This document shows, in pieces, positions 2,870 through 59,800 of a stretch of 64,000 nucleotides of DNA. The stretch is from contig CAJINV010000004.1 of the NCBI GenBank assembly GCA_905178155.1, forward strand, positions 6,240,828 through 6,304,827, written 5' to 3'. The DNA is from Amoebophrya sp. A120. Lineage: Eukaryota > Protista > Dinoflagellata. Position numbers and translations under genes: made by a program. Every line of letters starts with the position of its first letter. The stretch's first letter is position 1. The notes under the pieces are model-generated. The model was not told where the DNA came from, searched no databases, and worked only from the letters and a program-made list of their open reading frames with translations.

Positions 2870-4225
2870 TCAGAGGCCGTAGTTGGCCTTGATGTTTTTC
2901 CGGATGAACTCACGTTTTTTCGGCCCGGTCGTGAGACCGTCCTGTTCGTAGATCTTCGCGACGAGATCGCTGGCCGTGACCTTTTTCGCGGGGGCCTGGA
3001 TCTCCTTTCCGGCTTCCCGGATATCCAGCCCGAGCTGCTTGACCCAGTGGTCTATCAAATGCAAAAATGTCTGGGTCTGGAAGAGTCACGCTGCTTTTGC
3101 ATGACAAAGAAGGGCTGGCATTGAAGCTCTAGCATCACAGGTTTCGAGAAGCTTCCGCAATGCCGAATCTGCATCACAAATGCCCGATTTTGGTGACAGA
3201 AAGTGGCCACCAGCTTTTGCTGCTTATGCATGAGAGATTCTTGTGTGTTATAAAATGCGCATCACAAGTTGCATCCTTCCAGACCCAGACATATTTGCAA
3301 TGCATATGGTCCAGCAGTTCCGGCTTCGCGAGGCCCAACAGCTCCTGCAGTCCCTGGTCGTCGTCCGTGCGGCCCGCCGGGGCGGTGCGCCCCTGGTCCA
3401 GGAGCTTGTTCTTTTCCGCCTGGTTGGTCGTCAGCACCCGCTCGGCCAGCGTCTGTGCGTAGGCGTCGCTGAACCCGAGGTGGCCCGTGCAGAGCTGCTG
3501 GAGGTCCTTTTTGCTCAGGGCCTTGGACTATAGATTGCAAAAATGTCTGGGTCTGGAAGATTGTCATGCTAGTCTGGCATGACTCTGAACTCTGTATTGC
3601 ATGGCCGCGAAGAGCTCCTCCTCCCTGTCATGCAAAAACGCAGTTTCTCATGCAGCGTACGCAACTCAGAACCACGGAAAAACTTGTCATGCTGGGCAGC
3701 GCATTACAGTGCGCTCACTCTTCCCTTTCTTGCATCACAAGTTTCCAGACCCAGACATATTTGCATTTGATATGGACCGGTGGTCCTCCAGCTCCGCCTT
3801 CTTTTGCTCCACCTCCTCGTGGTCGGACCCAAAGAGCTCATCGTCGTTGAACCACACGTTCTCGTTGACCTCCTCTTCCATCCTGAGTAAAAACGTCCCC
3901 ACCCCAAGGTTGTCATGCAGATTTGCAGTCACAGGAAGATTTGTAATGCGCATCCCCATGAGGGGCATTTGCAATAGTGTTCCGGGATTTGTGATGCTGT
4001 AAACAGGATAAGCAGATGGATTTGTGATGCTGTTGTCCTTGCTAACATGCACTACACTACGGAGTGCAACTTGTCATGCGTGGCTCCCAAAACTTCTGGA
4101 TTTGTGTTGCTAAGTTCCCAACTTGACTCTGGGGTGGAGACGTTTTTCAATGTGATATCTTCCGTTTCGTCGTCGTCCTCGTCCAAATCGTCGTCGCTGG
4201 AGTCGCTGCTATCGAAATCCGTGTC

Positions 4226-4256
<31 letters not shown>

Positions 4257-13200: not shown

Positions 13201-13311
13201 CTGCTCGAGCAAGAGTATTGATGCGGTGAGACTGCAACCCCAGATCGTCAAGGCGTACGCGACAGTAGCCCACCTCGTTGTTCCTGCCGATATTAGCATC
13301 ATCATCTTCAC
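2870..13311 (-). CDS. Multi-exon type-I membrane protein: N-terminal hydrophobic segment, two PAN/Apple-like modules, Cys-rich/EGF-like modules, TM helix, long repeat-containing cytoplasmic tail
   Basis: Exons join in frame after removing 8 introners and a GT-AG intron (8971-9255). Motifs DQCAAVCAAW..CTGWTF..CRLF, LCMAWCRITPWC..GCWL, CTCTNG..C..C..CDDGY; TM WPILAMLALLLLLLLLCCLC followed by KKKK. Junctions near 10130-10480 and 11310-11640 are unresolved. Confidence 0.7.
3053..3306. mobile_element. Introner, family A (TIR TATCAAATGCAAAAATGTCTGGGTCTGGAA)
   Basis: TSD tggtc on both sides; removal gives ELLDH|WVKQ. Confidence 0.9.
3529..3772. mobile_element. Introner, family A
   Basis: TSD tggac; removal gives EDHRS|KALSKK; inverted relative of 31656-31908. 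Confidence 0.9.
3880..4157. mobile_element. Introner, family B (TIR ..AAAAACGTCCCCACCCCA)
   Basis: Direct repeat tcttcc; removal gives DETE|EEVNEN; left terminal T missing. Confidence 0.8.
5832..6100. mobile_element. Introner, family A
   Basis: TSD tcttc; TIRs at both ends. Confidence 0.9.
6874..7167. mobile_element. Introner, family B
   Basis: TSD cggcc; removal gives KKVA|DPNAAE. Confidence 0.9.
7212..7432. mobile_element. Introner, family C (TIR TATGARAGTGCACAACT)
   Basis: TSD tgaag/agaag (4/5); removal gives AMGF|(T/S)EAYVK. Confidence 0.85.
8177..8480. mobile_element. Introner, family B
   Basis: TSD gtctt; removal gives LNLED|DEIIIP, linking the TM exon to the cytoplasmic repeats. 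Confidence 0.9.
12425..12691. mobile_element. Introner, family A
   Basis: TSD tctgt; removal gives TKTTD|VVVLRE. Confidence 0.9.
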
Positions 13312-14578: not shown

Positions 14579-17488
14579 TCAGATTACGATTCTCTCCGGG
14601 TCGCCCTCCAAAGTGTCCGGTCCAGTTGCCTCACGCGCAAGCGTTCCATGGCGAAAAAGCGGAACGATGCTCTGTAGACGGTCCTGGTCGGTGAGTCTGT
14701 CATGGTGTTCGGGGGACGTGAAAAAGAAGAGCCGCTTGCGTTCCGCCAAGGTCCGCAGGCCGATGAGGTCGTCGGAATAAAAGGGTCCGGAGTCCTCCAA
14801 TGGCACGACGGCTCCCTCGCTATTTTCCTGCGCGAAGAACTCCGTTTCTTATCAACTGCAAAAATGTCTGGGTCTGGAAGAATGCAAGTTTGTCATGCTT
14901 GTCTGGCATGACTCGACGAGAATCTGTGTTGCATAAGCACGAAAAAGCCCTCTTACCTGTCATCATCATCATCATTGAGACGGACCCCCTGTGGTCGTCC
15001 TCGCGGCGTCGTCTTGGCCCTAGGCTGTTTCGGACAGATGTTGGCTGTGTCCGGCAAGAGGACGGCTCTGCGTGGGCAAATGTTGGTAATGTCCAGCAAG
15101 AACGCTTCCGTGGCCCCATTTTCTGCCGGTTTTTGGCTTTCGCCAGGATTACCCGCAACACCACCCGTGGACAGTGAAACCCGTGGCAGGCTTTCGCCAG
15201 GCGGTCCCGGGGAGGCCCTCCTCTTGGCACAATGTCGGTTAGTTACCAACTCGCACTCCCTGGAAGCGAGAAAATGAGCCCATCCTATGTTGGTGCGAAG
15301 CACGAGTGGGATCATTGGCTCGGGCGAGTAGTTGGGGGGGCTACTCTGGGGGTACGGGGACTGTTCGACGGACTGCTGCTGGATATGAAAAACCTCGGGG
15401 CTACTCACGACCATGGTCGCAGGCTAAGTTAGGCAAAGACTCCGTAGAAGTTTTCGCTCTGGTGGCCTCACATGGACCTGTCATGCAAAAAGGCAGCTTG
15501 CCATGCGGAATAGGTAAGGCATGGCAGCCAAAAAATTTGTCATGCATAGCTGCGTATCGCAGTGCGTCTATCATTTACTTTTAGCATTACAAGTTTCCAG
15601 ACCCAGACATATTTGCAATCCATATTTCTCGTGGCACGACGATTTCGTCCTGCGCAAACTTGATCAACAGCATTGCACCGACGTCCTCGGGTTCTACTTT
15701 CTGCCTGGTTACCGGTGCTCCCGGTCTCGCGCTCGCCATCGTGCCCGTTGTACCCGGCGTATTTTTCGATTGGAGGAGACGGAATTTGTCCACTGAAAAT
15801 AACTGATCCTCGGTCCGATCTTCTACTACTTCCTCCTTGGGTTGTTCTGGTCTTCCTCTTGTTTTCCAGTCTGGCGGGTTCACACCGGGGTCGGAAATAG
15901 TGAAGTTTGACGTGGCAGCATTTTTTCCAGCACCCGGCGATAGCACATTTTGTTCATCCCAGTGAACAAGCATCGCACCGTTTGTTGAGAACGTGGTCTG
16001 TTCGACGTCTTGGAGCTCGTCCAGGAGTACCTTCGGATTGTAGTTCGCTGCTTCCTTGACAACGCCACGCAGGCCTTCTTCCACCTCGTCGTCCGTTTTG
16101 GTGCGGTGTCGTCGAGATGAAGTCCTGTTTAATATCTTCTTGTCGTCCTGCTCTACCGCTCGATCCCCCTCCCCAAGGAGATTTCGCAGCAGATTCTGCT
16201 TCTGCAGCTTTCCCGCCGCTGTGTCGGCGTTGTACTCCGCGCACTCGTTGTTCAGCTTTCCGAGAAAAGTATTTGCGTTGCCAAAACTCCGCATGTCCCT
16301 CGGGTTGTACACGTAGCCCGCGGGCCCGATCAGGCGCTGCATTTCCGGTGCAAAAGTATCGTGATCGTACTCGCATAAATGCATTACCAATTTACTCAGC
16401 ATGAGAAATGAAATTTGTAATGCAGATTGACCTTAAGAACAAGATTTGTAATGCATGAATGCAATACGAGTACGATGCTTTTGCACAGGATACTGCACCC
16501 AGGGGTACAAATAGGCTTTCCGCACCACCCAGTCAAGCAGATTTCGGAAGAACACGGGAATCTGGTCCGAGGGCGGAATCTTGGTGATGCCCCGCTGCGG
16601 TCCGCCCACCGAGACGAAAAATTTGATCCGCAGGGGCAGCGCGCAGTTCTGCAGCACGTGGCGGCCGACCATGCCGCCATTCGAGTGGCCAATGATCGCC
16701 ATCACCCGCTCGTCTGGCGCATCGTCTGCACTGCTGGAAAAGAACCTGGGGTTGGCTATGGAAGGAAAGTTGTATTGTATCATGATGACCACGCACGGTC
16801 AGTACCTGCATCTTTACTTTTTCAACATCCAGTGACGTTTCTCATCACAGAGAAGTATTCCCGCCCACGTTTTCGTGTGAGTCAGCACTCGTGATCTTCT
16901 AAGAAGAAGAACCAATCGATGTTGAAATTATAAGAAGCAGCTAAGTATTCAAGTACTTACTTTCACAGTCGTGAGGCAGATCAATACTTATTTTCTTTCG
17001 ATACCCGCCTGCAACAACGCACATGCGCGGTTGGCCTGCTCGGCCACGGGGATCAGGATGGTCTCCTGTTTTCGTGCGTACTCGATCGAGTGAAACTCCC
17101 AGCGATCGCCCAGCTGCTGGTTCAAGAACGCCACCTCGTGGTCTTCCGCACCGGCGTCCGCGGAGAGCCCGTGAAAAATCGCAACGGGATTTTTCAGCTT
17201 CTTCTTCTTCGCCTTCACTTCGTGCAAAGCAGAAGGCGACGCGGCTGGGGCTGCTTCGCGAGGGTGGGTTTCATCTTGCAATAGAACCGCAGCTGTGGTG
17301 CTGGTTATACCCGCATCAGGCTGCTCTTGCGCTCGGTCGTCGTTAACTTCAACTACCCGGACTGCAGTCGTGTAGAAGCGCACGAACAAAGCGAGGACAA
17401 GACTCGCGGGAACAAAAAACCGCCGAGACCCGGGTACGCTGCCCCGCGCGAAGCCGAGGCGACGCAGGAAAGGCAGGAGACGTGTCAT
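14579..17488 (-). CDS. Palmitoyl-protein thioesterase (PPT1-like alpha/beta hydrolase)
   Basis: PVAIFHGL, nucleophile motif IIGHSNGG, FVSVGGPQRG, PAGYVYNP, FLGKLNNE, FAQDEIVVPRE|TEFF, YSDDLIGLRTL, TSPEHH; N-terminal hydrophobic segment. Confidence 0.85.
14850..15624. mobile_element. Introner, family A, carrying a nested insertion
   Basis: TSD tttct; both arms match element 21646-21900; removal gives VVPRE|TEFFAQ. Confidence 0.9.
14964..15475 (-). mobile_element. Putative truncated non-LTR retroelement/SINE inserted within an introner
   Basis: 9-bp TSD acctgtcat (14955-14963 and 15476-15484); (CAT)n tract at one end; no TIR; absent from sister element 21646-21900. Confidence 0.7.
16342..16492. 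mobile_element. Introner, family D (~150 bp, TIR TATSCWGTGCAAAAGTATCG)
   Basis: TSD ctgca; removal gives PWVQ|RLIGPAGY. Confidence 0.9.
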
Positions 17489-37804: not shown

Positions 37805-38111
37805 TATGGATGTGTCAGAGTTGAAATCGTCAAAGTTGAAATAATTTGTCATGCATAAAATGGATGCCAGTTGGAACCCAGTTTCCAAGTGGCGCATGAC
37901 AAATTTCGGTGGTCCCTAAATCCAGTTTGTCATGCTGTTTAGGCAAAGAAGAGTGGTTTTCTCATGCTACTTTAGCAGCTCGAGCTGTAGCCCCAAACAG
38001 GCTTACAATTGGCCTCACTTGCCTGCTCTGCAACACACGCACCTCGGGCCATGCATTTTATGCATTACAAAATATTTCAACTTTGACGATTTCAAACCTG
38101 ACGCTTCCATA
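37805..38111. mobile_element. Introner-family E element outside recognisable CDS (about 165 nt 3' of the PHF5A stop)
   Basis: TSD gttct; reverse-complement match to 31299-31604 along its length. Confidence 0.88.
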
Positions 38112-38276
38112 GTTCTGGTGTCGATGTTATGTCAGCTCCGTTGTGGAAAACACAAGGCTTCTTCGAAGATACTGCACATCGGTCCTTTCATCTCGGACTC
38201 GGTAGTTGTTGAAATACAAATAATCACTTGTCGAAAAGCAGGTTGTCGTTGTGGTAAAAAGCGCGTGAGTGAAAAT

Positions 38277-38798
38277 TTACAACCTCCGCTTGAAACCAAA
38301 CTTTTTCCGCTCGTAAAATAAATCCGTTTTTGCCTGTCCCAGGTTCACAATCTTTGGACACCCGTCGCGGTCCTTCTCCTGCTGGACGCACTCTTTGCAA
38401 TAGTACGCGTCGGATATACCCGCGCCTGGATAGTGTTTTTTCATGATGTTTCAACGCGGCATTTGGCAACAATTGCAGCCACAGACACAGTTCGTATAAT
38501 TTATTAAGCGACGCTTTACATCAACGCACTCCATGAAAAATTTGATAATTTGATTGAATCTCTGCTGCTAGTACTTGCAAAATAAAAACAAGTATAGAAG
38601 AAATCTAGTACCTCCGCAGATGACACATCTCCCCTGGTAACTGCCGTAGTTGCATTCGTCGCATACCCGCACCAGAATCGTTGGTCGCACATAGGAATCA
38701 CAGATGGGGCACAGTCCGTCGTGTTTCTCGCACAGCTTGCCGATCGCCACGCCCGGCTGCTTGCGGCACATGATCAAATCTGGATGATGCTTCGCCAT
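38277..38798 (-). CDS. PHF5A: PHD finger-like domain protein 5A (SF3b7/Rds3), U2 snRNP SF3b subunit
   Basis: [41 protein letters not shown]|[37 protein letters not shown]; one GT-AG intron at 38426-38611. Confidence 0.97.
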
Positions 38799-39761: not shown

Positions 39762-42700
39762 TCAGTACGCCGCGGAAAATTCCTCTAGCATCTGTTCTTG
39801 CTGCACCTCGACGACGCCCCAGCCGCCTTCTGTGCCCAAGATCTGGAGCTCCGACTGGTGCCATTTGCGCACCTCCGGCCGGTGCGCGATGCTGAAGAAG
39901 GTGATTTTGTCGTTTTGTGCCAGCAGGGAGTACAGTTTTTCCTGCACGTCCTGACTCACCGCACTGGTGGCTTTATGAGAGTGCACAACTCCCCCTCCCC
40001 CTCATTTATATGGCATGAACAGCAATACAACAACCGCCATCCGGAAACGGAATGCAGGTTTTGCATGACAAATTCACTTCGGACTGTAGTGCTGTTTGGG
40101 CTGCCAGAATCTGTCATGCAAAAAGTGCCAAAAGGCACAGGGCGCATTTGGTACTTTGCATGACAAATAAGGGGGAGGGGGAGTTGTGCACTCTTGTAAG
40201 CTTCGTCCAACGCTGCGAACGCCGGTTCGTGGAAGAGCAGACGCGCGAAGGACAGCTTCTGCCGTTCGCCGCCCGAGAGCATCTTCTCCCAATCCTGGCC
40301 CTTCTCTTCCAAACTATCAAATGCAAAAATGTCTGGGTCTGGAAACTTGTGATGCAAGACGGTCAATAAAAAATGCACTGTAATGCGCCCCCAAGCATGA
40401 CAAGTTGCTTCGTGCTTCTGTGCTGCGTATTCCGCATGAGAAACTGCGTTTTTGCATGACAGGCGAGAGAGGCTGTTTGTGGCCACGCAACACAGATTTA
40501 ACGGCCATGCCAGATCAGCATGACAAATCTCGCAATCTTTCAGACCCAGACATTTTTACATTTGATACAAACGGGCCGTGTGCGACTCCAGGCCGACTTG
40601 CTGTAGCAGATCCAGGATGCGGTCTGTTTTGATGTTTTTTTTTAAACAATTTTTGCCCAGTGCCAATCAGGTATAAGCAGGAAATCCGGCCGAATATAGA
40701 ATTTTCTTCATCTGCTCCTAATTTTAGGGGATTGATGTGATGATGCATTTGGTAGGAGTAGGTAGCGATGCCGTTGTCTTGTGCGTCCACCAGCGCTGTT
40801 CGTTGTACAACAGGATAACACTTTATCAACACATGCAAATACTACCTTTTTCGACGACGTTGTGCCGCTCGGTTTTCCTCGGGTACCACACGTTATCCAG
40901 CAACGTCCCATATCAAATGCAAAAATGTCTGGGTCTGGAAAAGTGTAGACTTGTCATGCAGATTTTCCATGACCCATGAGGTGAGGAATGCGGGACTTAG
41001 CATGACAGACTCTACGAGGTCTCTGCCATGCCTATCTTGCATGAGAAACTCGCTTCCAACTTGGTCAAAAGTGTGCCGCTTTTGGCACTCATGCAACACA
41101 GATTTTTGCATGCTTCAGATCTACTTACCATGACAAGTTGCATCCTTCCAGACCCAGACACTTTTGCATTTGATATCCCAACGCAGATGTAGGGATTTTG
41201 CGGTAGGTAGAAGATCTGCGGACCCGCACGGTCCTGGTTGTGCAGCAACTCGTATCTGTCCATAGTTCTTCTAGAAGCGTTGTGGTGAACTGTATCAAGA
41301 ACCTGGTCGTGGTTTGGATTCTTGGCAGCAGAAGAAGTTCCTAACTCATGATGATCGTCGTGGTCGGCATGATGTGCGCCAGATGGCTGTTCGAACACTA
41401 CTTCCCCGACGGTTTCCTGCAGAAACTTCGCGGCCTGCCATGCGGTGCGCAGCAACCGCCGCCCCGGCGCCTCTGGGTCGATAATGGTGGGGAGGGAAAG
41501 GTCGAGGGGCCCAGTGCCGCGAGGGGCAAATTTGTTCAGATTTCTTATCAAATGTAAAAATGTCTGGGTCTGGAAGAATGCAAGTTTGTCATGCTTGTCT
41601 GGCATGACTCTTAAATCTGTCATGCACATTACCAAAGAGCCCCACTTTTCTGTCATGCAGAAACGTAGTTTGTCATGCAGAGTAGGCAACACCTAGAAGC
41701 TCAGAAGCTTGTCATGCTGAGCCAGCAATTGTGGCCTCCTCATGATACGCCACACAGCATCACAAGTTTCCAGACCCAGACATTTTTACATTTGATATTT
41801 CTCCCCACACTACTGATGCTTTCCATTCCACCGGAGATCACCCGTGTCCGGCTCTTGCTGGAGGTCTTCTTCGGCACAGCAATATTGTCGGCCGTCTGCT
41901 CTGTGGAAATGCTAGTGGCGGTCCCGTCTTCGCTCGTCGGGCTGCTGCGGCTGTTCAACGACGGCCGCTTATTATTATTGTTATTCGCACCCGCTACAGC
42001 TTTCGGACTCAGGAACGCAGCAGATGTTCTCGACCCGTGAAGTAGATGCTCATCCCGGTCCGCTGGCGGCGCCCGCGTGGAAACAATCACGTGCCCGAAG
42101 GCGGGCTTCCACAGCCCGGACAGTGTGCGGAACAAACTCGTCTTTCCGCAGCCGTTTTATCAAAAGGAAAAATACCCCCTCCCCATATCAAAACGAAATT
42201 TCTGATGCTGGATTTGAATACACAAATCAGCTCTGTCTTGCTGGAGAGGAATGCAGCCCCATACTGAGCCTAGGTAGAGAGGCTCTGGCCTAGGCGTCTA
42301 GCATGAGAAACGTCCGTGCTGTAGGCCCATCAGCATCACAAACCGCCTGCGCAATGCAGCGGAGCTTGTGGAGTTGCCTTCTTGCAAGAAAGACGTGATT
42401 TGAGGTAGCAAATCAGCAACACAAATTTTCGGAAACATTCCTTTTCGATATGGGGAGGGGGGTTTTTTCCTCTTAATACGTTCGGGCCGGACACCAGCAC
42501 GTTGCAGCCCTTGCGGACCATCATGTTCAGGTTGCGCACCAGCAACCGCCCGTCCGGGGTGTAGACCGTCAGATTGCTGAAACGCACAAATTCGTTGTGG
42601 ATCTGCTCCATCATTCTCTTCCGTTGCTGCACCTGCTGCTTCAGCTGCGAGGCCACGTGCTTGGCCGCGAGAATGTTGTGGATCCCGAAAGACTCCGAAT

Positions 42701-45700
42701 TCGTGCTATTCCGGCGCTGGTCGACGGAAGAGGTGGAAGCCGAAGGAGCTGTACCATTTGTAAAATCTGCGGCTCCTGCAGTGCCGGCACTTGTAGTGGT
42801 CTCCGCCGTGCTATTGCTAGCTGCACTTTGCTTCTTACCCTTGTTTCTCTTTCCCTTTTTGCCGCTGCCTTTGCTACCCCTATCGGCTTCTTTCAGCTGC
42901 TCCTCTGCAGAAGTCGTCTGCTGGTGCCCGCTCGTGGTTGGCGGTGGTTGTACGACGATCTTCGGTGAAGAGCCCACACTGGGCAGCTGCTGCTGCTGCT
43001 GCGGTACCGCCCCGACCGCGCGCACCCGAGGACCTCCGGAAGCAGATGTGCCGCCGGCATTTAATGTTCCCCCAACTACCGGGCCGCCTGTAGCAGTACT
43101 AGTCCCCAACGACCCGCCGACCATCGGGGTCGCTAGAATGCCGGCGGACGTAACTACCGCGTGCTGTGACAAGCTGGAGGCGCTTTGGAACGTAGAACCA
43201 GCTCCGAACATCTTCATCCTGCCTGCACCTCCTCCGACAGTGTGCAAGTTTGCGTTCCCTCCACTGGCGCCGCCGAGCAGTACCATGCCCGCAGCATCGT
43301 CCGTGGTAAAAGAAGCGTAGCGTTGCAAACCCCGCGGGGCTAGGTTGCTTGTTCCAGTACTGCCAGCATCGGACTTCTTCTGTTGTTTCCTCGGAACCAC
43401 GGCTGTTGAGAGAGCCAGCGTAGAAGTACTACTACAAGTATCCGGCACTTGCAGCAGATTGTTCGCCTTGAAGATGCTGTTATTTTTTCCGGCGGATGTT
43501 GCCGAACCAACATCATGCCCTGTCGTTTTGTTCGAATGGGGCACGACCGCACTCCCAGAATTTGAATTCTTCGACGAACTCTTGCTAACAGAACCACCTC
43601 CGAAAGGCGCAAACTGCTCGCGCAGGAACTCCCAGCCGGCAGAAGCCAGCATGTTGCCAAAGGATATCCGCTCTTCGTGCTGCGCCCCCGCAAGGTCTTG
43701 TTCAGCAGTAGTGGTCCTCGTGCCACTTGTTTGTTCCGCCTCCGCCATCGAGAGACGAGCGCCGCTGTCGAGTAACGCGCCGTCCAGGGCGTCACTTGTC
43801 GAGATTCGTCGCGGCCCCTGCCTTCTCCTCGGCTCGGGTTGGTCCTTCTCACTGTCGTGGTCGTTGCTTTGGTGGTCCTTCACCGCAAGTTTATTCCCTG
43901 TCGAAGCTGCACCAGCACCACTCTGTGCACTACTATCCAGCATGCAGTGGTCGAGAATTTCCGTGACTCGGATCGTGTAGCCCTGCAGGATGTGCAGCTT
44001 GTTGACCGCCAGGATCAATTCCCCGATCGCGCCCGCCGCGTGGCGGATCAGGGAGTCCGCCGTGCGGTGCCGCCCGAGCACTTCCGTCTTCGTCAGTGTG
44101 CCCGCGGCGTACTTCATCATCAGCGGGTAGCTGATCGCGGCCATGCCGATGATCGAAGCACAGTACTTCACGGTCCACTGGTCCAGCAAGTTCTGCCGGA
44201 ACTTCGCCCACGCCAAAGCGCCCTTGAAGTGCAACAACGAGTGCAGTTTGTCGTCCAGTAGCGCGTGCTCCCGGGACTCCCCGCCGAGAAAGGCCACCTC
44301 CTCCGCGTGCACGCGCAATCGTTGGTGGGCGCTGGAGAACGCGGACTGCAACCCGGCCTCGGCCGCCTTCAGCCGCGAGAACGGCGGTTTTTGCAAGCCG
44401 AGAAAAAAGGCGTTCACCATGAAATACGCGTACAGCAGCATGGGGGACTGGAACCCGAGCGTGGCGAACAGCGCGCGGGAGCTGAGAACCACGTCCAGCA
44501 GCGGTTTCAACGTGTGGCCGTAGAGGTGCACCAATTCGTGGCAAAATTCCCCGATGTCCTCACTAATCCGCTTATCCGCATTGAACTGCTGAACCGCGGA
44601 TGAGGAGGATGTCGCTTCCGCAGGAGCTGCTCCGTCAGGAGATGCACCAGTACTAGCGTTCTTGTTAAAGGGATCTGCTCCACCACCCCCTGCTCTCGAC
44701 GAGGATGGAGTTTTGGAGGGTGGAAGCAGCTTCAGATTGTCCATCGAGCCACCGCGGCTTCTAGAAGCAGATGTACCAGAAGAAATACTTGAGGATCCGG
44801 CTTGTAGCTTCGCCGCTTTGGAGGTATCATTCTGCTTATTGTTCTTGCTCGCCGAAACACCCGAGGTGGAAGCAGGAGTAGTTTTGGAAGATGCGACGAT
44901 TCCTATCTCTTCGTCAGTGCTACCACCAGCTGCGGTAGTTTTATTCGTCAGCGCCGAAACCATAGCCTTCCTCCCGGCGCCGCTCGCGACCGCGGGGTAG
45001 GCCAGGTAGTAGTAACTTCGGTTCGCCAGGTACTGTTCATGGATGGTTTCCGTGGCCTTGTGCTGCAAAGACTCCGCGATGTATTCCTCACACCACTTCA
45101 AAACGCTGTTCACCCAGGCGGACAAACCCCCATAGCTCAAAAACCGGTAGGCGTACAGGATGAACTTATCCCAGCTACCCTCGATCACCGTGGCCGTGGC
45201 TTCGCCGTACAGCTCCGAGATCCGGATGGAAAGCCAGGACCGGAGAAAGAGGAAAATCCCGTGCACCCCGAACCAGACCGCCTGCTTCGCGCCAATCGCA
45301 ATGCGCAAAAGGGAGAGCAGCCGCCCCTCGTCGGACCGCTCTCCTGGTTCAACATCCGTGCCTTCTTCTCCTGCGGGAAGATCTTTTTCATTCCCGTCTG
45401 AAGTCTTCGATTTGCTCCTGCTCCGTCGCCGGGACGGATTTCTACTTTTCCCGAAGAGCGCGTTGCTCAACCTTTTGGAGAGATAAAGCAGAATCGCCTT
45501 CAGCTTCAGCAAAAGCAGGTTTTTCTGCTTGCTCGCCTTCTTGCCTATGTTGTAGCCCGTGGCCTGCTGCACCAGATTCTTATACAACCCGAGAAAACGC
45601 CAGCGGAAGTACAGGCAAAGAACCGCATTCACGCTGCAGCCCGCCACGAAAATCCGCAGGGGGGTCGCGTTCTATCCTGTGCAAAACTATCGTACTCGTA

Positions 45701-45850
45701 GTAATCGCAGTCATGCATTACAAATCTTTTTATCAAGGCAAATCCGCATTACAAATTCCATTTCTCATGCTAAGGAAATTTTAATATGCATTTATACGAG
45801 TACGATACTTTTGCAATTGATACGTTCTGCACCGAAATCAAAGGCCGCAT
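39762..45850 (-). CDS. ABC transporter subfamily D (peroxisomal fatty acyl-CoA half-transporter-like)
   Basis: TMD motifs ([27 protein letters not shown]), Walker A GPN|GCGKT, YLPQNPY, signature LSGGERQKL, Walker B ALDE|ATSA, H-loop SIAHR. Six introners plus a GT-AG intron near 40625-40845. Start uncertain. Confidence 0.92.
39974..40198. mobile_element. Introner, family C (at Walker B/D-loop)
   Basis: TSD ggctt/agctt; removal gives LDEA|TSAV. Confidence 0.9.
40315..40567. mobile_element. Introner, family A
   Basis: TSD caaac; removal gives TARL|EEKGQDW. Confidence 0.9.
40911..41175. mobile_element. Introner, family A
   Basis: TSD tccca; removal gives ICVG|TLLDNV. Confidence 0.9.
41546..41797. 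mobile_element. Introner, family A
   Basis: TSD tttct; removal gives VGRN|LNKF. Confidence 0.9.
42158..42478. mobile_element. Introner, family F (inside Walker A)
   Basis: TSD cgttt/cgttc; removal gives SGPN|GCGKT. Confidence 0.9.
45673..45822. mobile_element. Introner, family D
   Basis: TSD cgttc; removal gives SVQN|ATPLR. Confidence 0.88.
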
Positions 45851-50890: not shown

Positions 50891-53800
50891 TTAGATGTTG
50901 GTGGCCATCTGGAGCTTGACGATTTCGTCCTTTAGCAACGCGTCGGAGTCGTGCAGGAGAAACTTTATCCTGTGCAAAAGTATCGCACTCGTAGTAATTG
51001 TATTTATGCATTACAAATCTCTTTTTCAAGGCAGATCAGCATTGCAAATTCAATTTGTAATGCTGGGCTAATTTGTAATGCAATTTATACTAGTGCGATG
51101 CTTTTGCATTGCATAAACTTCTCCTGGCAGCAATTCTCCCACTCTTCGACCTTCTGCAGCAATTCCTCGACCAGTTTCTCTTTTTTGCGCCGCAGCCGAT
51201 TCCGCTGCTGTTCCTCCTGCAAGAGCAAAATCGAGTTGCCCTGTCATGAGGTGATGTGAAGATTTAGGGTTCTTTCTTTGATGCCGCGAGCTAAGTTCCT
51301 TCTTTTTATGAGCAAAAAACCTCTCATGCAAAGATGAAAAGAGTAGGTAGGAGCTACATTGCGACTACGACTGCCTACCACGAAACACCGCACGAAAAGG
51401 ATGTTTCAAATTTAAGCACAAGAGTCAAGTCATCTCAAAGACAGCCTCTACCTTGAACCGATCCGCGCCTTTCTCCTGCGTGTTGGCTTCAAACTCCCTT
51501 ATTTTGGTTTTCAGCTGCACGCACTGGTCGTATTTGCGCAAGATGATCGCCCGCGCCTCCGTCTTCACCCGCAGGTGGTGACATTCTCGACGCACAAGCA
51601 ACAACGCCTTCAGCGGGCTTTGCCTCAGCAGCGTAAAACCGGCGAAATGGGGCGAACTGCCAGGGCTGGCGCTGGAAGGTGGTCCGAGGAAGCTGCCAAA
51701 CGTGGTGGAATAGGAATTGCCTTGCGAGGATGAACTATCGTGGTCCAAAGTCACAGTTGTACTACTCGAGGAAGTTGATGCGTCCACTTCCTCGCGCAGC
51801 GACACTGCGAATGTGGCAAACACGTCCGCATCCAGCTGCTGACAAGTCTCAGAGGAGAGTCCTCCTGCAGCTATTCCGCCCGCTCCGAACAACGTTGGTC
51901 TACTACTTGTAGTTTCACTGGGAGTTGTACCAGTATCGTTCTTCTCAACACCGCTAAGATGAATCATTCCTGCCCCGTTGTTTATCGGCGTCGAGGTCGT
52001 ACTACTTGCCGCGGAATGGGAATCCGTGCCAGAACTTTTACAACCGGTCCCGTTGAGCAGGCTCTTCACCCGGGCGGTGAACCCGTTTCTCTCCTCCTCC
52101 GGGGTCTGCAGTTCCTCCCACAATTCCGCAAGCTCGACGCGGGCGCCGGCCACTTCCGCCCGGCACTCCTCCTGCAGCCGCTCGAGCTCCAGTTCCAGTT
52201 TTCGTACTTCGAAAAACGAGCAGGGAGTTGATGAAATGACGCTTTGAATTTCCTGCTCTGATGTTCTACTTGACGAGCTTTGCTTCTTGTCTTTGTTTTT
52301 CGGCGTATTCCCCGTTTTCTTACTCAGATCCACAACAACTACCGGTGTGGACGTCGCAGAGGAGCTTGAGTTTGATGCTCCCTGCTGCTGCCCACGATGC
52401 TTGGCCGCCCGTGCGTCGGAGAGGGATTTTATCTGGATAGAAGACGAGTTGCTTTCCTGGTGGTCTACTCCACTCGACGCATCGGAAGTGGTCTGATGTG
52501 GCGTTGTTGTACTAGTACTGGCACCCTGCTTACTGCCAAAAGAACCCCCTCCAAACGAACCGCCAGTTACTTGTTGCTCTTGCGACAAGCCCGGTCCTTG
52601 TTGTTCCAATCGGTTGTTGTAGCGCGAAATCTCCTTTTGCAGCTTCTGCTTCACGTGTGCGACGGCTCTCTTGACCAGCTGCAGTTCCTGGTTGCGCTGT
52701 GCAACTTCGCAAAGGAGATGCTCGCTCCTTTGGTTCGACGCCTTTAGTACACCACTTCCCGATGATCCTCCAGCTACCGACGGAGCAAGTGTCGTAGCCT
52801 CACCAGCTCCGGCTCCTCCGGGCAGTGTTGAGGCAACTACTCCACCTGGCGTTAGCAAGTTGCTCGCTTTTTCCTCATCCGTCAGACTCGCTATCTCTCC
52901 GTCGACAAAGAGGCGAAGCTCCACTCCGCTCATGGGCGCCCACAGTGTTTTCGGTGGCTGTAGGAAAGTCGCGTCGTGCGCTTCTTGCAGGGAAAAATCG
53001 TTTTGCTGCTGCTGCACGGACGCGAGGGTGCGGGGTCCGGGGGTGAAGGAGGCATAGTTGTACTTTGATGTCGCCTGCGTAGAGGAGCTACTGCTGCTCT
53101 TCGACACCAGTACCACATCCGATGCTCTCGACGTCGTTGATGTGCTAGCAGATGACTGCCGTTCCGCGCGACCATTTGCAGGATCAACATCAACCTCGGC
53201 TTGCTCTTCACCTTCAGCCGGGATGTTGCAGGATCCACCACCATACACGAGCCACTTCTTTGCGATCCTTCCTCCCACCGCTTTCGTTCCCGCCGGGACG
53301 AGGTAGAGCTCCTCCGCTAGCAAGCGCAACTGGCTGACCTGTTCGGTCAACACATCCTTTGCCACGTGCTGCAGTTTCTGCAGCCGTTCGTGCAGCGGCA
53401 GTGGGGTAGTTGGTACGACAGCAGCTGAATTCTGCTCCGATAGAGAACTGGAAGAGGAAGATGCTGCAGCTCCTCCGATGGGGTGAAAGACGAGTCCATT
53501 TGCTGGCCCGGTAGATGAACTTGAGCTTGATGACGTTCCGAGATCTCCTTGATGCTTCTGCGGAGACAAGGTCAACACAGAATACTTGTCAAGCACTGCG
53601 GTCAAAGCGGAAGGCTTTTTCCCCCGCGTCGCAGTGGAGGCAAGGATGTTTCCCTTCAGCAAGGACGCATTTATGTTGAAACTACCTGGTGTATTATTTA
53701 CGGCGTTGCCGTTGGCGCCACATGGCTGCTGTAGCTGCTGGTGTTGTTCTGTCGATGAGTGCGACGTTGATGTTGAACTACCCTGGTTATAAAACCCGTT

Positions 53801-56800
53801 CTGCTTCACAGTGGTTGCTAGCCGGACGTCATATTTCGAGAGCAGTTCCGGGAAACTGCTTGCAGCCGGTAGTTGTAAGGAGCCACTTGCAGTTGATGTG
53901 CCACCGGTATTCAGTGCTTTGCCCGATGCGCCACTGCCACTTGTGTAGTTCTTGCCACCGCTCGCCGAGAAGGTACCAGTAGATGCTGAAGTTGTACCAG
54001 AACCCCCAACTGTAATCGAGTAGCACTTGGACAGCCCCTCCTCGAGCCGACCGGCTTCTTTTCTCAGCTGATACCACCGGTACTCTTGGTGCTCCAACTC
54101 GTGGGCGCAGATGTCAATGACCCGCTTCTCCAGAATCGACAGCTGGGCTTTCTGCTTCTCCGCGCCCATGCCCACGTCCGACCAAATGTCAAACAGTAGA
54201 GCTTGCGCTTTCGCCAAAATTGCCGGCAAGGGGCTGGGCTGTGGTTGCGAAACGGTCGCACTAGCACTGGAGCTGCCTGACGACTGGGTACCACTGCTGC
54301 TCTCACTCGTCTTTTTACTGCTGGCTGCGCTGGCCGCGATGGCTTCGTCCGCTAACTCGTAGAGCAACTTGCTCAGCGTGCCCGCTGCGGGCTTCGAGGA
54401 TGATGTTTTAGATCGTTTCGATGATCCTGGTACGACGAGTGTTGTCGCGAGAGATCCCGAAGTTCCTGATCCACCACCAGGAGTTCCACTATCCAAGTCT
54501 TCCATGATGTGGTCACCAGGAGCTCCTCGACTCAGATCATGATCCAAAAAGCTGTTTCTACTACTACTGCTTGCTTGCTCCGCTATCAGCGCCGCGTTTT
54601 CTCGCCGCAAGTCGGTAACGGTTTCTTTCAACTGATTGAGTTCGTCCTGCAGGTGATCTGCGGTCGAGTCACGACCTTGCGGGGGGAATATCCTCGCTGT
54701 ACTGGCGCTTGGTTCATCCGCAGGTCTTGTCCCGCTTTGCCGCAGCTCGTCGTTTTGTTTGCGCAGGTCGAAGTTCTGCTCTTGTAGGAGCCGCAACTGC
54801 TCCGAACGCAGATCCTCCTCATTATGGTGATTTCCGGTCAACAGTGAGGATTTCTTGCCATTGCCACTGCCTGGCTTATTCTGTTTTGCCGGAGAGGTGG
54901 ACGTTGCACTAGGGCCGGCAGAGTTCCCTTCTACCTGCGTAGAAGAGGTAACACCACCTTGCACTTCGTTTAGCAAAGCCAGTTCCTTCTCCACGTGCAG
55001 CCGCTGTATTTCCGCCAGCTCCCTCTCCGCTTCCTGCTGCTGGACGTCCAAACGCTGCTGCAAGTCGGTCTGCACCAACTGTCCCTGCTCGATCTCAGCC
55101 TCCAGCGACTGCAGGCGCGTTTTGAGCGCTTTCGCCTCGGAGAACGCCTCGTCCAATTGGTCCAGCGCTGCCACGCACACCGTGGCCACGTTGCGGTGCG
55201 ACTGCAGCTTCTCAAATAGCTTCGCCCCGAAGGATGTTGTAGCACCTGCTCTATCGCCAGTACCACTAGCAGGCCACCTTGAAGTAGTAGAACTACAAGT
55301 AGCGCTGCTGCTAGTGGAAGTACCTGTACCATTATCCCCTTGCAGTAACTCTGCGAGCTCCTTTTGCGTTTCGGCGATCCGGTCGGTGTCGTACTGGAGC
55401 TCGGCTTGCAACGTTTCTTTCTCCTCCCGCAGCATTTGTTCGTCGTCGCCGTTGGTCAACAGCTGCTTTTGCAGCTCTTCGTTTAACTGCTGGAGTTGCG
55501 AAACCTTATCGTCCCGCTCTCGCAGGTCTCTTTCCAGTTTCGTGTTGGCGTCCTTCAGCCGTTGTGCGCGGGCCATCTCGCGCTCCACCCACAATTTTCG
55601 CTGCGCGATCTCCCCGCTTAGCAGCTGCGTTTTGTTCGTTGCATTGGAGGTTTGTTCAACACCTCCCGCTGTAGTACCACTAGTAGTACTGCTCCCGCGG
55701 GGATGTTGCAGTTGCGTCGAGCCGCTGGAATGTCTAGTTCCAACCGGCGTTGCTGCGTTAGAAGCTGCAGCTGTACTATTCCACTTCAAACCACCAAGTC
55801 CGAGTGGTGTTCGCGGCTGCGAGGTTCCAACCAGCAAGGGCGTCGCAGCCCCGGACCGGAGCGTGGACGTCGACCCACCACTGACATTCGCGGGGTAGGT
55901 TACCGGCGTGCCCGCGAGCACCTGTTGCCTCCGGATTTTACTGGTCAGCGCGTTGTTTTCCTCCTGCAGGTTTTTGTACTTGGCCTGCCACTCCTTCTTC
56001 CACTTCCGGAACCGGTTCTCCTCCTGCCGCACCCGGTGCTGGATGGTGTCGCGCTGGCCCCGGAGGCGCGCGATCTCGTCGCCCATCTTCAGCATCCTCC
56101 GTTCCTGCGCCTCCTTGGCGCGAAACAGCCGCTGCGCCTCCTGCTGCTGCCGTTGCAGCTGCGTCAAGTGCCGGTTAACCTCCGCGAGCTTGCCCTGTAG
56201 CAGCGCCTGCTTCTGATTAGAACTACTACTTACCGGCGTTGGAGTTGTTGTAGCACTACCAGACAGCGGACCAGTGGTGGTACTACTGCCCTTTTCCGAG
56301 ATTTCCTTTTCCAGTTTCAACTTGTCCGCTTGCACATTCGCGATTTGGTCCTCGAGCTCCTTGCACCGGGACTCGTAACGCTGTTTCATGCTGTAAAATG
56401 CCCTTTCCTGGAAACAGAGCTGCTCCATCAACTTCTCTTTTTCTGCTATAGCCTTCTCCAAATCCACCATGCGCTCCTGCAAATTTATCAAAGGGAAAAA
56501 TCCCCCCTCCCCATATCGAAAAGGCACGTCTCAAGAAATTTGTAATGCTGATTGGTGACCACAGATCGTCTCTGTCTTGCAAGAACGCAACCCCACAGGC
56601 TCCGCCGCATTCTGCAGGCGGTTTGTGATGCTGTTGGCCCTACAGACTAGACGTTTGCCATGCTCAGCGCCTAGCCCAAAACCTCCCTACTCAGGGTCAG
56701 CATAGGCGTGCAGGCCTCTCTAGCAGGACAAATCTGATTTGTGTACGCAAATCCAGCATCAGAAACTTCGTTTTGATATGGGGAGGGGGGATTTTTCCTC

Positions 56801-59800
56801 ACAATAAAATTCTGCTGCTCCTTCCGAAACGTCTCTTCCTCGGCCTGATCCGTGGCCGCGTGGGTGAGGTCCTCGAGCTCATCCATGTCCAGGGGCGGCT
56901 CTTCCGCTGCAGAAGCTGTGGCGGCGCTGCCGGTATTGTTTGATGTTGCCTCTCGAGGAGCTGTGTTGGCAACGAGGATCTGTTGCGATGAAGATGCATC
57001 GACGAGGACCTGCGCGCGACTCTGTGCGATCACGCGCTGCAACTCGGAACTGTTGTTGTTTGCGATCTTCTGATCGGCCACCGCTTTTTGCAGTCTGCTC
57101 TCTAAATTCCGAATCCGCTTTTTCTGGTCGTCGATCTCTTTCAAGTACGCTTTCAAAGCTTTTTTCTCCAAGTCACCTTCCCCGTTGCTCGCCAAATCGT
57201 TTGTGTCACCATCGTCGTCAGTCGTGAACAGCTTACTGGCCATGAAATTGTGCTGCGCCCGCAGTTTCTCCGTTTCCTCCGAGGCCTCGCGCAGCTTGAT
57301 TTTCAATTCGGTGTTTTCGCTCTGGAGCTGTTTGTTCTCTTTTCCAAACCGGTCCAGCTGCTCCCGCAGTTCCGCCACCACGTCGGAAATCTGCCCGTCG
57401 GAACGCATCGTAGCCGATGTAATTCCGCCGGCACCACGGCCGCTCATGTCCGTTTTCGCAATCAACAGTTCCAGCTGCAGCTCCTGGATGCGCTATCCAA
57501 CAAAAAAACTCTGTTCGTGTAACTTTGCTTGGCTGACAGCATCACAAATTTGCTCTACATGACAGCGAAAACCGGTCATGCGTTGCTTGTAAGGGAAAAC
57601 ACACATGAAAAGAGGACTTCATGGCTGTCTGGCATGACAGGCGTAACTCTGTTGCATGTTCTGCATATACAAAGTTACACTTACACAGTTTTTTTCTTGC
57701 ATATGCGCTGCTTCATTTTCACCAGTTCTGCGTCCTCCACGTTGAGATTTTGGGAAACTTTGTTCTTAATATTGCGCGCACGGTTGGCGTACCTGGGTTG
57801 GTGGAGTTTTTTTGTCGACAAGGCGATAGGTATTGAACATCCAACCATAATTGAACTGAACACGATCAATTGCGATTCCTTTTTCATTTGGTAGAAAGAA
57901 AACTCGTAGGCCACGGCGGATCATCGATCAACAAGCAGCAAAAAAACAAGTACTTACTTCAATGTGTTCAAACTTTCTCCGAAGTTGACGTCTGCCGGAC
58001 TGACGCACGCGAGCATTACGGTCCGGGAATTCCCCCCCAGACTGTCCTGCAGGAGCCGGGTGAGGCGGGAATCGCGATACGGCACGTGCGCCTTGTTCAG
58101 ACTCGCGTCCCCGAGCGCCGCAATCACGTTTCCTAGTGCGAGCAGGCCCTCGTTAATCGCACGAAAAAAGTACTACAGGTACACACTTGTTGTCAATTCA
58201 GCAACACATATTTCTCTGCATGAGAGAGAAAACTTGCAATGCAGAAATCCTAAGGGAAAACACCTATGAAACGAAGCACCTATGCATATCCGGCATGACA
58301 GAGCTGCTCTGTCTTGCTTGGCCTGCAACACAATGTGTAACTGCAACACTTTTTTCTTGCGATATGGTTGATCGCCACGCCCTCCCGGAACCGGTCCCCC
58401 ATCGTGCCGGTCTTTTTCACGCGCTCGGACCCGGCAAGGTCCACAAACCGCAGCTTTGCCGTCAGGCAGTCGCCGTCCTGCTTCTGCCGTTCCACAACGA
58501 CGGAAAACACCGCGTGAGACCTTTTCATTCGAGTTCGATGGGGAGTTGATGTTGTCGTATTGTTTTCATTTCTTGATCAGGTCTAGCGGGAATAAGGATC
58601 GAATTGGAATTCCTGGCCATTTGTAGAAGAGAGACCTCTACGTCAGAAAACAACATATACCTCGAGGAGTAGTCGTTCATTAGAGTTGCGCCGGTGGTTC
58701 TGTACACAGCACCCCGGTCCAGAACTTTCAGGAGGTCACTGGCCGTTCGCACCTCCACTTCGCGGAGTCCGGAAACGACGACGCCTTGGCGGGGTTTCAA
58801 ATAGCCTTCAACAAATACCGAGTGTCTAGAAAGAAATAGCAACAACATGAATCGGGCACTAACTCGTGCGGCCACAGCAGGTGGAACGCGACAACTGCAT
58901 ACAGCGACTTACGTAGGGCTAGGGAGCAGCAGCTAACAAAACAATTATTCTTCCAAATTTTCATCTCCCTACAGCATTCTTTTTAACCTCTTACCTCGTT
59001 CCCTGTCTTCCCGAATCACAAGCCCCTGCAAAGAAGAAGACGAAGCCCCCGCCGCTCCACCACTAGAAGTTGCTGTACTTGCAGCCGACAGGCTGCTGTG
59101 CATTGCAAAAGCATCGCACTAGTATAAATCGCATGACAAATTTTCTCAGCATGAGAAACTGAATTTGTAATGCAGATTTGCCTTGAGAAAGAGATTTGTA
59201 CTGCACGATTGCAATTACTACGAGTACGATACTTTTGCACAGGATAGCTGCTACTAGCCAGCAAGTCCTTCAACTCCTCGTTGTGGAGTTCGAGAAAACT
59301 GCACCGCACCAAAAACTTCTCCGTCTTCCGCTTTTCCATTTCCGCGAACAAGCACTGCACGAACTTGGGGATCATGCCCGACTGCGCGTCCCCCAGCCCG
59401 TTGTGGACCGCCTGCGCAAAGCTGCCCAGGGTGTAGGTCTTCCCCGCGCTGGTCTGCCCGTAGGCGAGCAGACTGGCGTTGAGCCCCTCGAAGACGCCGG
59501 GCACCAACGGGCGGCAGCACGTCTCAAACACTTGCTGCTGTGTCGAATCGGTGCCGAACACGTAATCAAAGGTGTACCGCTGCTGCCCAATCGCAACAAC
59601 CGGGTCGAAGTGGGGTGTTGCGAGTGTTGAGTGTAACGCCCCCGCCGACGTAGTTGCAGGGTTGCTGTTGTCCAGCGAACTGCTGCCATTCGGACAAACA
59701 ACGCACTCCGCGCACCCGTTCTGGGCCTCGCGGCTGATCAGCGGGCGGATCCGAACCGCTACTTGCACCCGCTCCATCGTAGAAGCTGCGTTGTCCGCAG

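What the first reader, a model, noticed from the sequence alone, without database searches (positions are those of the whole stretch)
3053..59246. Transposon-derived introns apparently excised precisely with no splice-site sequence requirement
Seen: 44 TAT...ATA elements with TIRs and 5-bp TSDs, 43 of them in CDS; removing element plus one TSD restores the frame and conserved motifs. TSDs show no consensus (sense-strand examples TTCCC, AATTT, CTCCA, CACTT, GCAGC). For 32553-32732 and 56486-56806, no sliding of the junction gives GT-AG, GC-AG or AT-AC. Normal GT-AG introns coexist in the same genes. Established: inverted-repeat introners with direct repeats and non-canonical ends are reported in Amoebophrya, and to my knowledge their excision mechanism is unresolved. 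Inference: a second, structure-guided excision system measures the junction from the TIR hairpin, acting either on RNA or on DNA (loosely analogous to TA-bounded ciliate IES elimination).
Basis: partly seen in the sequence, partly recalled or inferred. Interest (0 to 1): 0.85.

Follow-up and report, generated by a model that had tools for sequence, protein, structure and literature searches.

The report
Amoebophrya transposon introns, fixed cut register
These are the already published mini-transposon introns of the marine parasite Amoebophrya A120: transcript-like contigs show them removed to the base without GT-AG ends, and mismatched target duplications indicate that the cut likely falls 1 base before and 4 bases after the element, with a conserved 5' 'UA' that is probably read by a loosened spliceosome rather than by a signal-free second system.

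Summary
Observation largely confirmed: 43 (not 44) TAT..ATA inverted-repeat elements with 5-bp target duplications, 42 in coding frames, 17.5% of the window. The window is Amoebophrya sp. A120, and the elements are its published introners (Farhat 2021). For 26 of 43, removal of exactly element+5 nt is supported by transcript-like contigs (14) or A120 protein models (12); the same contigs also lack GT-AG introns. A DNA-like run spans three elements unbroken, so DNA elimination is unlikely. Refinement not found in my literature searches: six informative mismatched duplications fit only one register (intron = N-UAU...AUA-NNNN). Across 275 strand-assigned elements, the sense-5' UA is altered once versus 12 times at the 3' end (p=0.003), so 'no sequence requirement' is too strong: +1 and the acceptor are free, U+2/A+3 are not. 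The best mechanism is a relaxed U2 spliceosome guided by the hairpin (about 0.5); the rival is a Euglena-like non-spliceosomal route (about 0.35). A G-U bias test for RNA-stem selection did not replicate. No transposase was found. This scan reported the same register on three other pieces of this genome.

The parts
3053..3306 (-). introner, family A, TSD exact
   Evidence: +5 removal matches A120 model P0015
3529..3772 (-). introner, family A, TSD exact
   Evidence: P0015
3879..4157 (-). introner, family C, sense-3' end ATG
   Evidence: P0015
5832..6100 (-). introner, family A
   Evidence: P0015
6874..7167 (-). introner, family C; site empty in a sister-strain ORF
   Evidence: P0015 and P0005
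7212..7432 (-). introner, family D, TSD mismatch at sense position 5; model reads GFT, so k<=4; site empty in sister strain
   Evidence: P0015, P0005
8177..8480 (-). introner, family C
   Evidence: P0015
12425..12691 (-). introner, family A
   Evidence: P0015
14850..15624 (-). family-A introner carrying a nested insert of about 510 bp (8-bp repeat each side, short trinucleotide-repeat end)
   Evidence: frame restored
16342..16492 (-). introner, family B, sense-3' end AAA
19762..19956 (-). introner in a protein kinase gene
   Evidence: P0001
21240..21501 (-). introner, family A, TSD mismatch position 1 (synonymous, uninformative)
   Evidence: P0001
21646..21900 (-). introner, family A, TSD mismatch position 5 (synonymous, uninformative)
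   Evidence: P0001
22214..22550 (-). introner without a direct repeat; model removes 342 nt = TAT..ATA+5, k>=2
   Evidence: P0001
24915..25231 (-). introner
   Evidence: X1 record 1 length exact
25331..25601 (-). introner, family A
   Evidence: X1 record 1 length exact
25766..25914 (-). introner, family B, sense-5' TAC
   Evidence: X1 record 1 length exact
26064..26303 (-). introner, family D
   Evidence: X1 record 1 length exact
26441..26614 (-). introner, family B
   Evidence: X1 record 1 edge and length
27268..27578 (-). introner, family C
   Evidence: frame only
28359..28617 (-). introner, family A
   Evidence: frame only
28771..29039 (-). introner; spanned unbroken by DNA-like run X5
29686..29978 (-). 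introner
   Evidence: frame only
30037..30249 (-). introner, family E; spanned by X5
31299..31604 (-). introner, family G
   Evidence: frame only
31656..31908 (-). introner, family A
   Evidence: frame only
32084..32349 (-). introner, family A
   Evidence: frame only
32553..32732 (-). introner; no canonical ends in any register; spanned by X5
33735..34013 (-). introner, family C
   Evidence: frame only
34247..34408 (-). introner, TSD mismatch position 3; contig edge gives k>=3
   Evidence: X1 record 3
35025..35358 (-). introner, family F
   Evidence: frame only
37805..38111 (.). family-G element outside any long frame, downstream of a PHF5-like gene
39974..40198 (-). introner, family D, sense-5' TAC, TSD mismatch position 5; contig edge gives k<=4
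   Evidence: X1 record 6
40315..40567 (-). introner, family A, in an ABC transporter gene
   Evidence: X1 record 6 length exact
40911..41175 (-). introner, family A
   Evidence: X1 record 6 length exact
41546..41797 (-). introner, family A
   Evidence: X1 record 6 length exact
42158..42478 (-). introner, family F, TSD mismatch position 1; k>=1; splits the Walker A region
45673..45822 (-). introner, family B
   Evidence: frame only
50966..51115 (-). introner, family B
   Evidence: frame only
56486..56806 (-). introner, family F, in a kinesin gene
   Evidence: joint 56480->56807, 326 nt, X1-X3
57494..57703 (-). introner, family E
   Evidence: joint skipping 215 nt, X1-X3
58155..58364 (-). introner, family E, sense-3' end ATT, TSD mismatch position 4; joint gives k = 4 or 5; in the kinesin motor domain
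   Evidence: joint 58149->58365, both=1, X1-X3
59097..59246 (-). introner, family B, sense-3' end ACA
   Evidence: joint skipping 155 nt, X1-X3
24690..24860 (-). canonical GT-AG intron removed in the same contig
40624..40845 (-). canonical GT-AG intron removed in the same contig
57793..57957 (-). canonical GT-AG intron
58521..58660 (-). canonical GT-AG intron
58785..58994 (-). canonical GT-AG intron

Best explanation
These are non-autonomous TIR transposon copies with 5-bp target duplications that are removed from transcripts as element plus 5 nt, likely at one fixed register (1 nt before UAU, 4 nt after AUA) and probably by a relaxed U2-type spliceosome that reads the element's own U+2/A+3 as a donor. 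Step 1 (shown): insertion into exons in either orientation duplicates 5 bp; sister strains differ in which sites are filled. Step 2 (shown by contigs and protein models): the mature transcript keeps one copy's worth of the duplication, so the protein is unchanged. Step 3 (inferred from 6 sites): the upstream exon keeps duplication bases 1-4 and the downstream exon supplies base 5, so the intron is N-UAU(C/G)...AUA-NNNN. Step 4 (inferred): the donor is GUA with +1 freed; the acceptor has no AG and would be placed by distance from the 3' arm, possibly from the A seven bases before the cut acting as branch point, with the long stem holding both ends together in place of U1/U2AF. Step 5 (untested): the product would be a lariat. 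Because either end of the TIR gives the same signals, any insertion in either orientation is spliceable, which explains the spread.
For: Joints of exactly element+5 at 4 of 4 elements laid, with 3 GT-AG introns, in X1-X3 (one sample). Two X1 contigs have the exact predicted lengths, 578 and 946 nt, across 10 elements and 2 GT-AG introns. A120 models match +5 at 12 of 12 elements in their genes. Register: k>=1 (42158), >=3 (34247), <=4 (39974) from contig edges; 4 or 5 (58155); >=2 (22214) and <=4 (7212) from models. Sense-5' TA altered in 1 of 275 versus 12 of 275 at the sense-3' end, p=0.003; family orientation relative to sense 16:15. 6 of 7 canonical donors here are GTA. All 9 predominant A120 non-canonical motifs in Farhat Table S4 have T at +2, and the 9 for A25 begin TT. 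U2, U4, U5, U6 and 83 of 89 spliceosome proteins are reported in A120, U1 snRNA was not detected. TIR positions 4-7 pair in only 19-28 of 43 versus 33-42 at positions 8-14, so the ends are frayed.
Against: No lariat, branch point or spliceosome dependence was tested. +1 and the last two intron bases are free, although they normally dock the 3' site (own knowledge). The register rests on 6 one-sided constraints; if each cut were random among six positions the pattern would still arise about 6% of the time (hand calculation). k>=4 rests on one site, k<=4 on one contig edge plus one annotated protein. A codon-score test of the register was inconclusive, 18 of 31. The branch-A idea is weak: 1 versus 6 changes, not significant. 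Table S4 placements come from an aligner and are not independent. Strand calls are about 95% accurate (36 of 38). X1-X4 are RNA by the tool's guess and are contigs, not reads; raw RNA runs X7 and X8 laid only 24 and 1 reads.
Confidence: 0.5

Rival explanations
1. A separate non-spliceosomal route, as proposed for Euglena nonconventional introns: an endonuclease or protein complex binds the TIR stem and its UA end, cuts 1 nt before and 4 nt after it, and a ligase joins the exons, releasing a circle or linear RNA.
For: Both junction dinucleotides are free apart from U+2. The same fixed geometry fits. Euglena has a genetically defined paired-end code with fixed spacers, N3CDG...CH'GN5-6|R, beside GT-AG introns (PMC12501133 abstract and Discussion), and circular products are reported (PMC11282704). 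Long terminal stems are predicted for most elements.
Against: Conservation is one-sided and matches the spliceosomal donor core. No G-U over A-C excess in 173 elements (130 vs 133); the window-only excess (46 vs 26, p=0.02) did not replicate. Broken terminal pairs do not shift the cut (58155, 59097). At 22214 the modelled 5' cut follows a G-UAUGG donor that lies outside the stem register. Farhat reports the same IR/DR organisation in 15% of canonical A120 introns.
Confidence: 0.35
2. Removal is at RNA level but the register is not fixed; it varies by family or molecule inside the 5-bp repeat.
For: Only 6 informative sites from 4 families or singletons. Farhat's Fig. 3 legend calls splice sites variable relative to the hairpin, and annotated donors in Gozashti's dataset are mixed (11 of 58 A120 rows seen).
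Against: All 6 constraints admit k=4 and no other single value. No second joint was listed at >=10% for the 4 elements laid. The strand-asymmetric UA fits a donor at k=4.
Confidence: 0.1
3. Elements are excised from DNA (IES-like) in an expressed somatic copy.
For: TA-bounded ends and transposon origin. Contigs drop rare variants, and only one DNA-like run was laid, so other life stages are untested.
Against: X5 contigs run unbroken through 28771, 30037 and 32553 at depth 42-44, like unique DNA. Element-free contigs also lack GT-AG introns. End conservation depends on transcription direction.
Confidence: 0.03
4. The element-free cDNA is a reverse-transcription skip between direct repeats flanking a hairpin ('falsitron').
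For: A short direct repeat plus a strong stem is the recalled signature of such skips; cDNA-only falsitrons are documented (PMC8240250 abstract).
Against: Retained elements would break kinase, kinesin and ABC transporter frames. Bins inside 56486 and 58155 have depth 0 against 9-20 in exons in X1-X3. Removal is exact with mismatched or absent repeats.
Confidence: 0.02

Closest known systems
Introner elements (IEs) of Amoebophrya sp. A120 (Farhat et al. 2021, PMC7789003; Gozashti et al. 2025, PMC12130899)
   Same: Same organism (window exons identical to A120 models), IR starting TAT + 7 nt + A-run, 3-5 nt direct repeats with a 5-bp example, about 17% of the sequence, RNA-supported non-canonical junctions, mechanism open.
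   Different: The paper treats splice sites as variable or unknown relative to the hairpin and sees no splice signature; here a uniform 5-bp duplication, a single 1/4 register and a strand-specific conserved UA are indicated.
Euglenid nonconventional introns (PMC12501133; PMC11282704)
   Same: MITE-like origin, paired ends, TSD-like repeats, junctions at fixed spacing from the paired motif, coexistence with GT-AG introns.
   Different: Different motif (CDG/CH'G, spacers 3 and 5-6, purine after the cut) against UAU/AUA with spacers 1 and 4; here the 5' end resembles a spliceosomal donor; circular products untested here.
Non-canonical MITE-derived introns of Fritillaria tunicates (PMC13326754 start of abstract; PMC11282704 passage)
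   Same: Mass of transposon-derived non-GT-AG introns reported to be handled by a modified U2 spliceosome.
   Different: They have preferred ends such as AG-AC/AG-AT; here the acceptor and +1 are free.
IS3EU/GingerRoot and Ginger2 DDE transposons (PMC10045372 passages)
   Same: IS3EU/GingerRoot have TA..TA termini; Ginger2 makes 4-5 bp duplications.
   Different: IS3EU/GingerRoot duplications are usually 6 bp, here 5; no transposase was found, so no superfamily can be assigned.
Ciliate TA-bounded IESs (recalled)
   Same: Transposon-derived, TA ends, inside coding sequence, precise removal.
   Different: IESs leave somatic DNA; these stay in DNA and are removed with 5 extra bases from transcripts.

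Membership tests
Amoebophrya A120 introner elements | Inverted repeat starting TAT, seven variable bases, then >=3 A | tested here: met
   end profile of 80 ends against Farhat section 11
Amoebophrya A120 introner elements | 3-5 nt direct repeat at the boundaries | tested here: met
   35 of 43 exact 5 bp, 7 with one mismatch; longest exact repeat is 5 bp in 234 of 297 related elements
Amoebophrya A120 introner elements | Repeated families, removed from transcripts with non-canonical ends | tested here: met
   7 multi-copy families; joints and lengths
Amoebophrya A120 introner elements | Host is A120 | tested here: met
   P0001 and P0015 named Amoebophrya sp. A120; exons match at about 100%
Non-autonomous TIR DNA transposon (MITE) | TIRs, fixed-length TSD, short and non-coding, empty sites in relatives | tested here: met
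   sister-strain ORFs read through 7212 and 6874 and run into element ends where the window has none
Non-autonomous TIR DNA transposon (MITE) | A cognate autonomous element with a transposase | tested here: inconclusive
   none in the window or 132 loci (377 kb); the 2459-bp candidate L064:476-2934 has a 415-codon frame with no Pfam match; whole genome not held
IS3EU/GingerRoot | TA..TA termini | tested here: met
   definition
IS3EU/GingerRoot | Duplication usually 6 bp | tested here: not met
   5 bp in 234 of 297, 6 bp in 0
U2 spliceosomal intron | GT/GC-AG ends | tested here: not met
   GT-AG in 0 of 43 in any register; 4 of 173 at k=4; 146 of 173 have no canonical or semi-canonical option
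U2 spliceosomal intron | Donor core U+2, A+3 under selection | tested here: met
   1 versus 12 changes in 275; holds only if the k=4 register is right
U2 spliceosomal intron | Lariat product and dependence on U2/U5/U6 | not testable with these tools
   no raw reads of this strain
U12 intron | AT-AC or U12 donor, minor snRNAs present | tested here: not met
   AT-AC in 1 of 43; minor snRNAs reported absent
Euglenid nonconventional intron | N3CDG...CH'GN5-6|R signature | tested here: not met
   ends are UAU/AUA with offsets 1 and 4 (definition)
Euglenid nonconventional intron | Excised as full-length circles | not testable with these tools
   contigs only
Ciliate-type IES | Absent from expressed DNA | tested here: not met
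   X5 spans 3 elements unbroken; one run only

The most novel reading that the evidence does not exclude
Amoebophrya runs a splicing code in which a transposon end alone programmes the cut: N-UA at the 5' side, and a 3' cut measured 4 nt past AUA with no acceptor sequence at all. It is executed either by a U1-less spliceosome with an unconstrained second step or by a second, transposon-dedicated RNA cut-and-join machine, making any TIR insertion in either orientation protein-neutral.
Probability: 0.6. Interest if true: 0.75.

Novelty: already known. Interest (0 to 1): 0.45.

Why it matters
The elements and their non-canonical splicing are published, but how tens of thousands of them are removed is open. 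A fixed register turns an apparently signal-free set of junctions into a short testable code (N-UAU...AUA-NNNN) with sharp predictions: which base survives at mismatched duplications, where a branch point would map, and which reporter changes should block splicing. A spliceosome that needs neither G+1 nor AG would stretch the known limits of second-step chemistry. A non-spliceosomal route would be a second origin of the Euglena-type system. It also tells annotators where to place these junctions.

Tried and rejected
Whole genome not held, so no genome-wide transposase, snRNA or ligase search. No holder on record as RNA was listed; X1-X4 are RNA by guess. The joint table was swamped by repeat noise (15 shown, 793 not), so only piece edges and lengths were used. 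Protein searches with a short kinesin exon and exon 4166-5824 found nothing. Rfam: 0 matches in the window. The TIR motif was absent from viral contigs. G-U versus A-C bias: window 46 vs 26 (first 20 positions; 21 vs 16 and 30 vs 22 for 10 and 15) but 130 vs 133 in 173 related elements, so rejected as evidence; whole-element folding favoured the sense strand in 22 of 42. Codon-score and AT-drift tests of the register were inconclusive. First boundary for 22210-22550 (4 bp longer, near-match repeat) was dropped because it shifts the frame against P0001. Rows dropped before counts: 297 pairs to 292 distinct; 182 confident strand calls, 173 with <=1 repeat mismatch; 232 with locus-level strand. 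The single 5' exception (L069:4536) was called + while three neighbours are -, so it may be a miscall; it was kept as counted. Eight possible long elements were examined only by frame length; one was scanned against Pfam.
Full report
Census. An unbiased scan for inverted repeats flanked by direct repeats picked out TAT..ATA elements with 5-bp repeats. Of 40 strict TAT..ATA pairs with an exact 5-bp repeat, 31 had a TIR score >=4, against 0-1 in each of 20 shuffles; 9 more had one mismatch. End-profile and BLAST searches added 39974, 22214 and 58155, and a last relaxed search found no other: 43 elements, 11,197 bp, 17.5% of the window. They fall into 7 multi-copy families plus singletons and share an internal 8-bp motif (123 of 129 window matches lie inside elements). 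All host genes are on the minus strand. Removing element+5 nt gives frames of 115 to 2932 codons for 42 of 43, including kinase, kinesin, ABC transporter and thioesterase genes.

Identity. A kinase exon retrieved P0001, named Amoebophrya sp. A120, at 100% identity, and P0015 is the A120 model of the first large gene. Farhat et al. 2021 (PMC7789003; I saw the abstract, sections 10, 11, 12 and 16, passages, supplement legends and Tables S4-S6, but no figures) describe A120 introners with IRs starting TAT, seven variable bases and an A-run, 3-5 nt direct repeats, 29,850 repeated introns and 17% of the genome. They report U1 snRNA undetected, minor snRNAs absent, and splice sites variable or unknown relative to the hairpin. 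Gozashti et al. 2025 (PMC12130899; passages and 11 of 58 A120 rows of supplementary file 8) class 9 of those 11 families as TIR DNA elements of unknown superfamily. The system is therefore already known.

Removal is at RNA level and exact. In X1-X3 (three runs of one sample, RNA by the tool's guess, contigs) all 4 elements in 56200-59700 are skipped as element+5, together with 3 GT-AG introns, with no other joint listed at >=10%. In one search, two X1 contigs have inner lengths of 578 and 946 nt, equal to the genomic span minus 5 elements (+5 each) and one GT-AG intron in each case. A120 models match +5, and no other length from +2 to +8, at 12 of 12 elements in their genes; these are annotations, not reads. 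That is 26 of 43 supported beyond frame logic, plus one contig edge (34247); 15 rest on frame alone and one lies outside a long frame. DNA-like run X5 spans 28771, 30037 and 32553 unbroken at depth 42-44, like unique sequence, which argues against DNA elimination in that sample.

Transposon origin. In 132 metagenome loci (80 with long flanks) carrying the commonest TIR, ends defined without scoring the last three bases gave 297 pairs: 271 TAT..ATA, and a longest exact repeat of 5 bp in 234. The repeat's composition equals that of flanking coding DNA, and one family lies 16:15 in the two orientations relative to the sense strand. Three ORFs from one 6968-bp contig of a sister strain (about 96% amino-acid identity) read straight through sites 7212 and 6874 and run into element ends near window 7770 and 7553, where the window has none: strain-specific insertion with empty sites equal to element+5. 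No transposase was found. TA..TA ends recall IS3EU/GingerRoot, but these usually make 6-bp duplications (PMC10045372 passages).

Where the cut falls. Let k be the number of duplication bases kept by the upstream exon. Eight elements have unequal copies. Left-aligned contig edges give k>=1 (42158), k>=3 (34247) and k<=4 (39974); the joint 58149->58365 with one ambiguous base gives k=4 or 5; models give k>=2 (22214) and k<=4 (7212, GFT not GFS); 21240 and 21646 are synonymous and were not covered by contigs. Only k=4 satisfies all six: the intron starts one base before UAU and ends four bases after AUA. At 22214 the geometry holds without a direct repeat (342 nt = 337+5). Caveats: random registers would give this pattern about 6% of the time (hand calculation), and a codon-score test was inconclusive (18 of 31). 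All 9 predominant A120 non-canonical motifs in Table S4 have T at +2, as k=4 predicts, but aligner preference could also produce that.

Is there a sequence signal? At k=4, +1 and the acceptor are free: GT-AG in 0 of 43 and 4 of 173. But the two ends of the TIR are not equally conserved relative to transcription: the first two bases are altered in 1 of 275 elements at the sense-5' end and in 12 at the sense-3' end (p=0.003); position 3 shows 6 versus 1 (not significant). Transposition is symmetric here, and a single mutation bias cannot spare T at position 1 and A at position 2 on one end only (inference), so selection on the RNA is the likely cause. U+2/A+3 is the core of this window's canonical donors (GTA in 6 of 7). 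The strand model was right in 36 of 38 confident window calls. Evidence that the RNA stem itself is selected is lacking: the G-U excess in the window vanished in the larger set (130 vs 133), and 58155 and 59097, with broken terminal pairs, are cut exactly.

Mechanism. I favour a relaxed U2 spliceosome (0.5): donor N-UA, acceptor placed by distance, the stem bringing the ends together where U1 is missing. Tunicates give a precedent for mass non-GT-AG spliceosomal introns (PMC13326754, search listing and start of abstract; a word search found no mention of Amoebophrya). The rival (0.35) is a Euglena-like route with a paired-end code, fixed spacers and circles (PMC12501133 abstract and Discussion; PMC11282704 and PMC12621601 passages). 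Variable register (0.1), DNA excision (0.03) and reverse-transcription skips (0.02; PMC8240250 abstract) are less likely. No step of the chemistry was tested.

Novelty. The elements are published. I did not find the 1/4 register or the strand-specific UA in searches, nor in the passages read (also PMC11453091). Farhat's Figs 3 and S19-S25, Gozashti's remaining rows and supplementary files 13-14, Roy et al. 2023 (listing only) and papers outside the library were not seen and may bear on this. Three earlier unreviewed notes of this scan report the same register on other pieces of this genome; I had recorded k=4 before reading them (notes), and they are not counted as support. Verdict: a known system with a plausible unpublished code that makes its open mechanism testable; interest 0.45.

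Noticed in passing
window 14964-15476: Insert of about 510 bp inside element 14850, with the same 8 bp on both sides and a short trinucleotide-repeat end, like a truncated non-LTR retroelement; 150 bp of it match L067 at 96.7%. The host frame is still restored by removing the whole element.
   Followed up: partly
L064:476-2934: TIR ends with an exact 5-bp repeat around 2459 bp, holding a 415-codon frame with no Pfam match; nested insert or captured gene, not evidently a transposase.
   Followed up: partly
window 6874-7780 versus P0002, P0005, P0016: A sister-strain contig differs at four element sites within about 900 bp (two empty, two extra) at about 96% protein identity, implying very fast turnover.
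   Followed up: partly
window 37805-38111: The only element outside a long frame lies downstream of a PHF5-like (SF3B spliceosome subunit) gene at about 38290-38798; no 625-nt unspliced piece was listed for the covering contig, a weak hint that it too is removed from the 3' UTR.
   Followed up: partly
window 2873-13344: One A120 gene model of 2400 aa (P0015) spans this stretch, with a repeated domain of unknown family (no Pfam match; distant homologues P0003-P0014 at 27-36%).
   Followed up: no
whole window: All genes found are on the minus strand (unidirectional cluster); canonical intron 3' ends are A-rich with no pyrimidine tract.
   Followed up: no
PMC7789003 section 11 and Table S4: A25 introner repeats start TTA and its main motifs are TT-NN, which would also put U at +2 and A at +3 despite a different repeat.
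   Followed up: no
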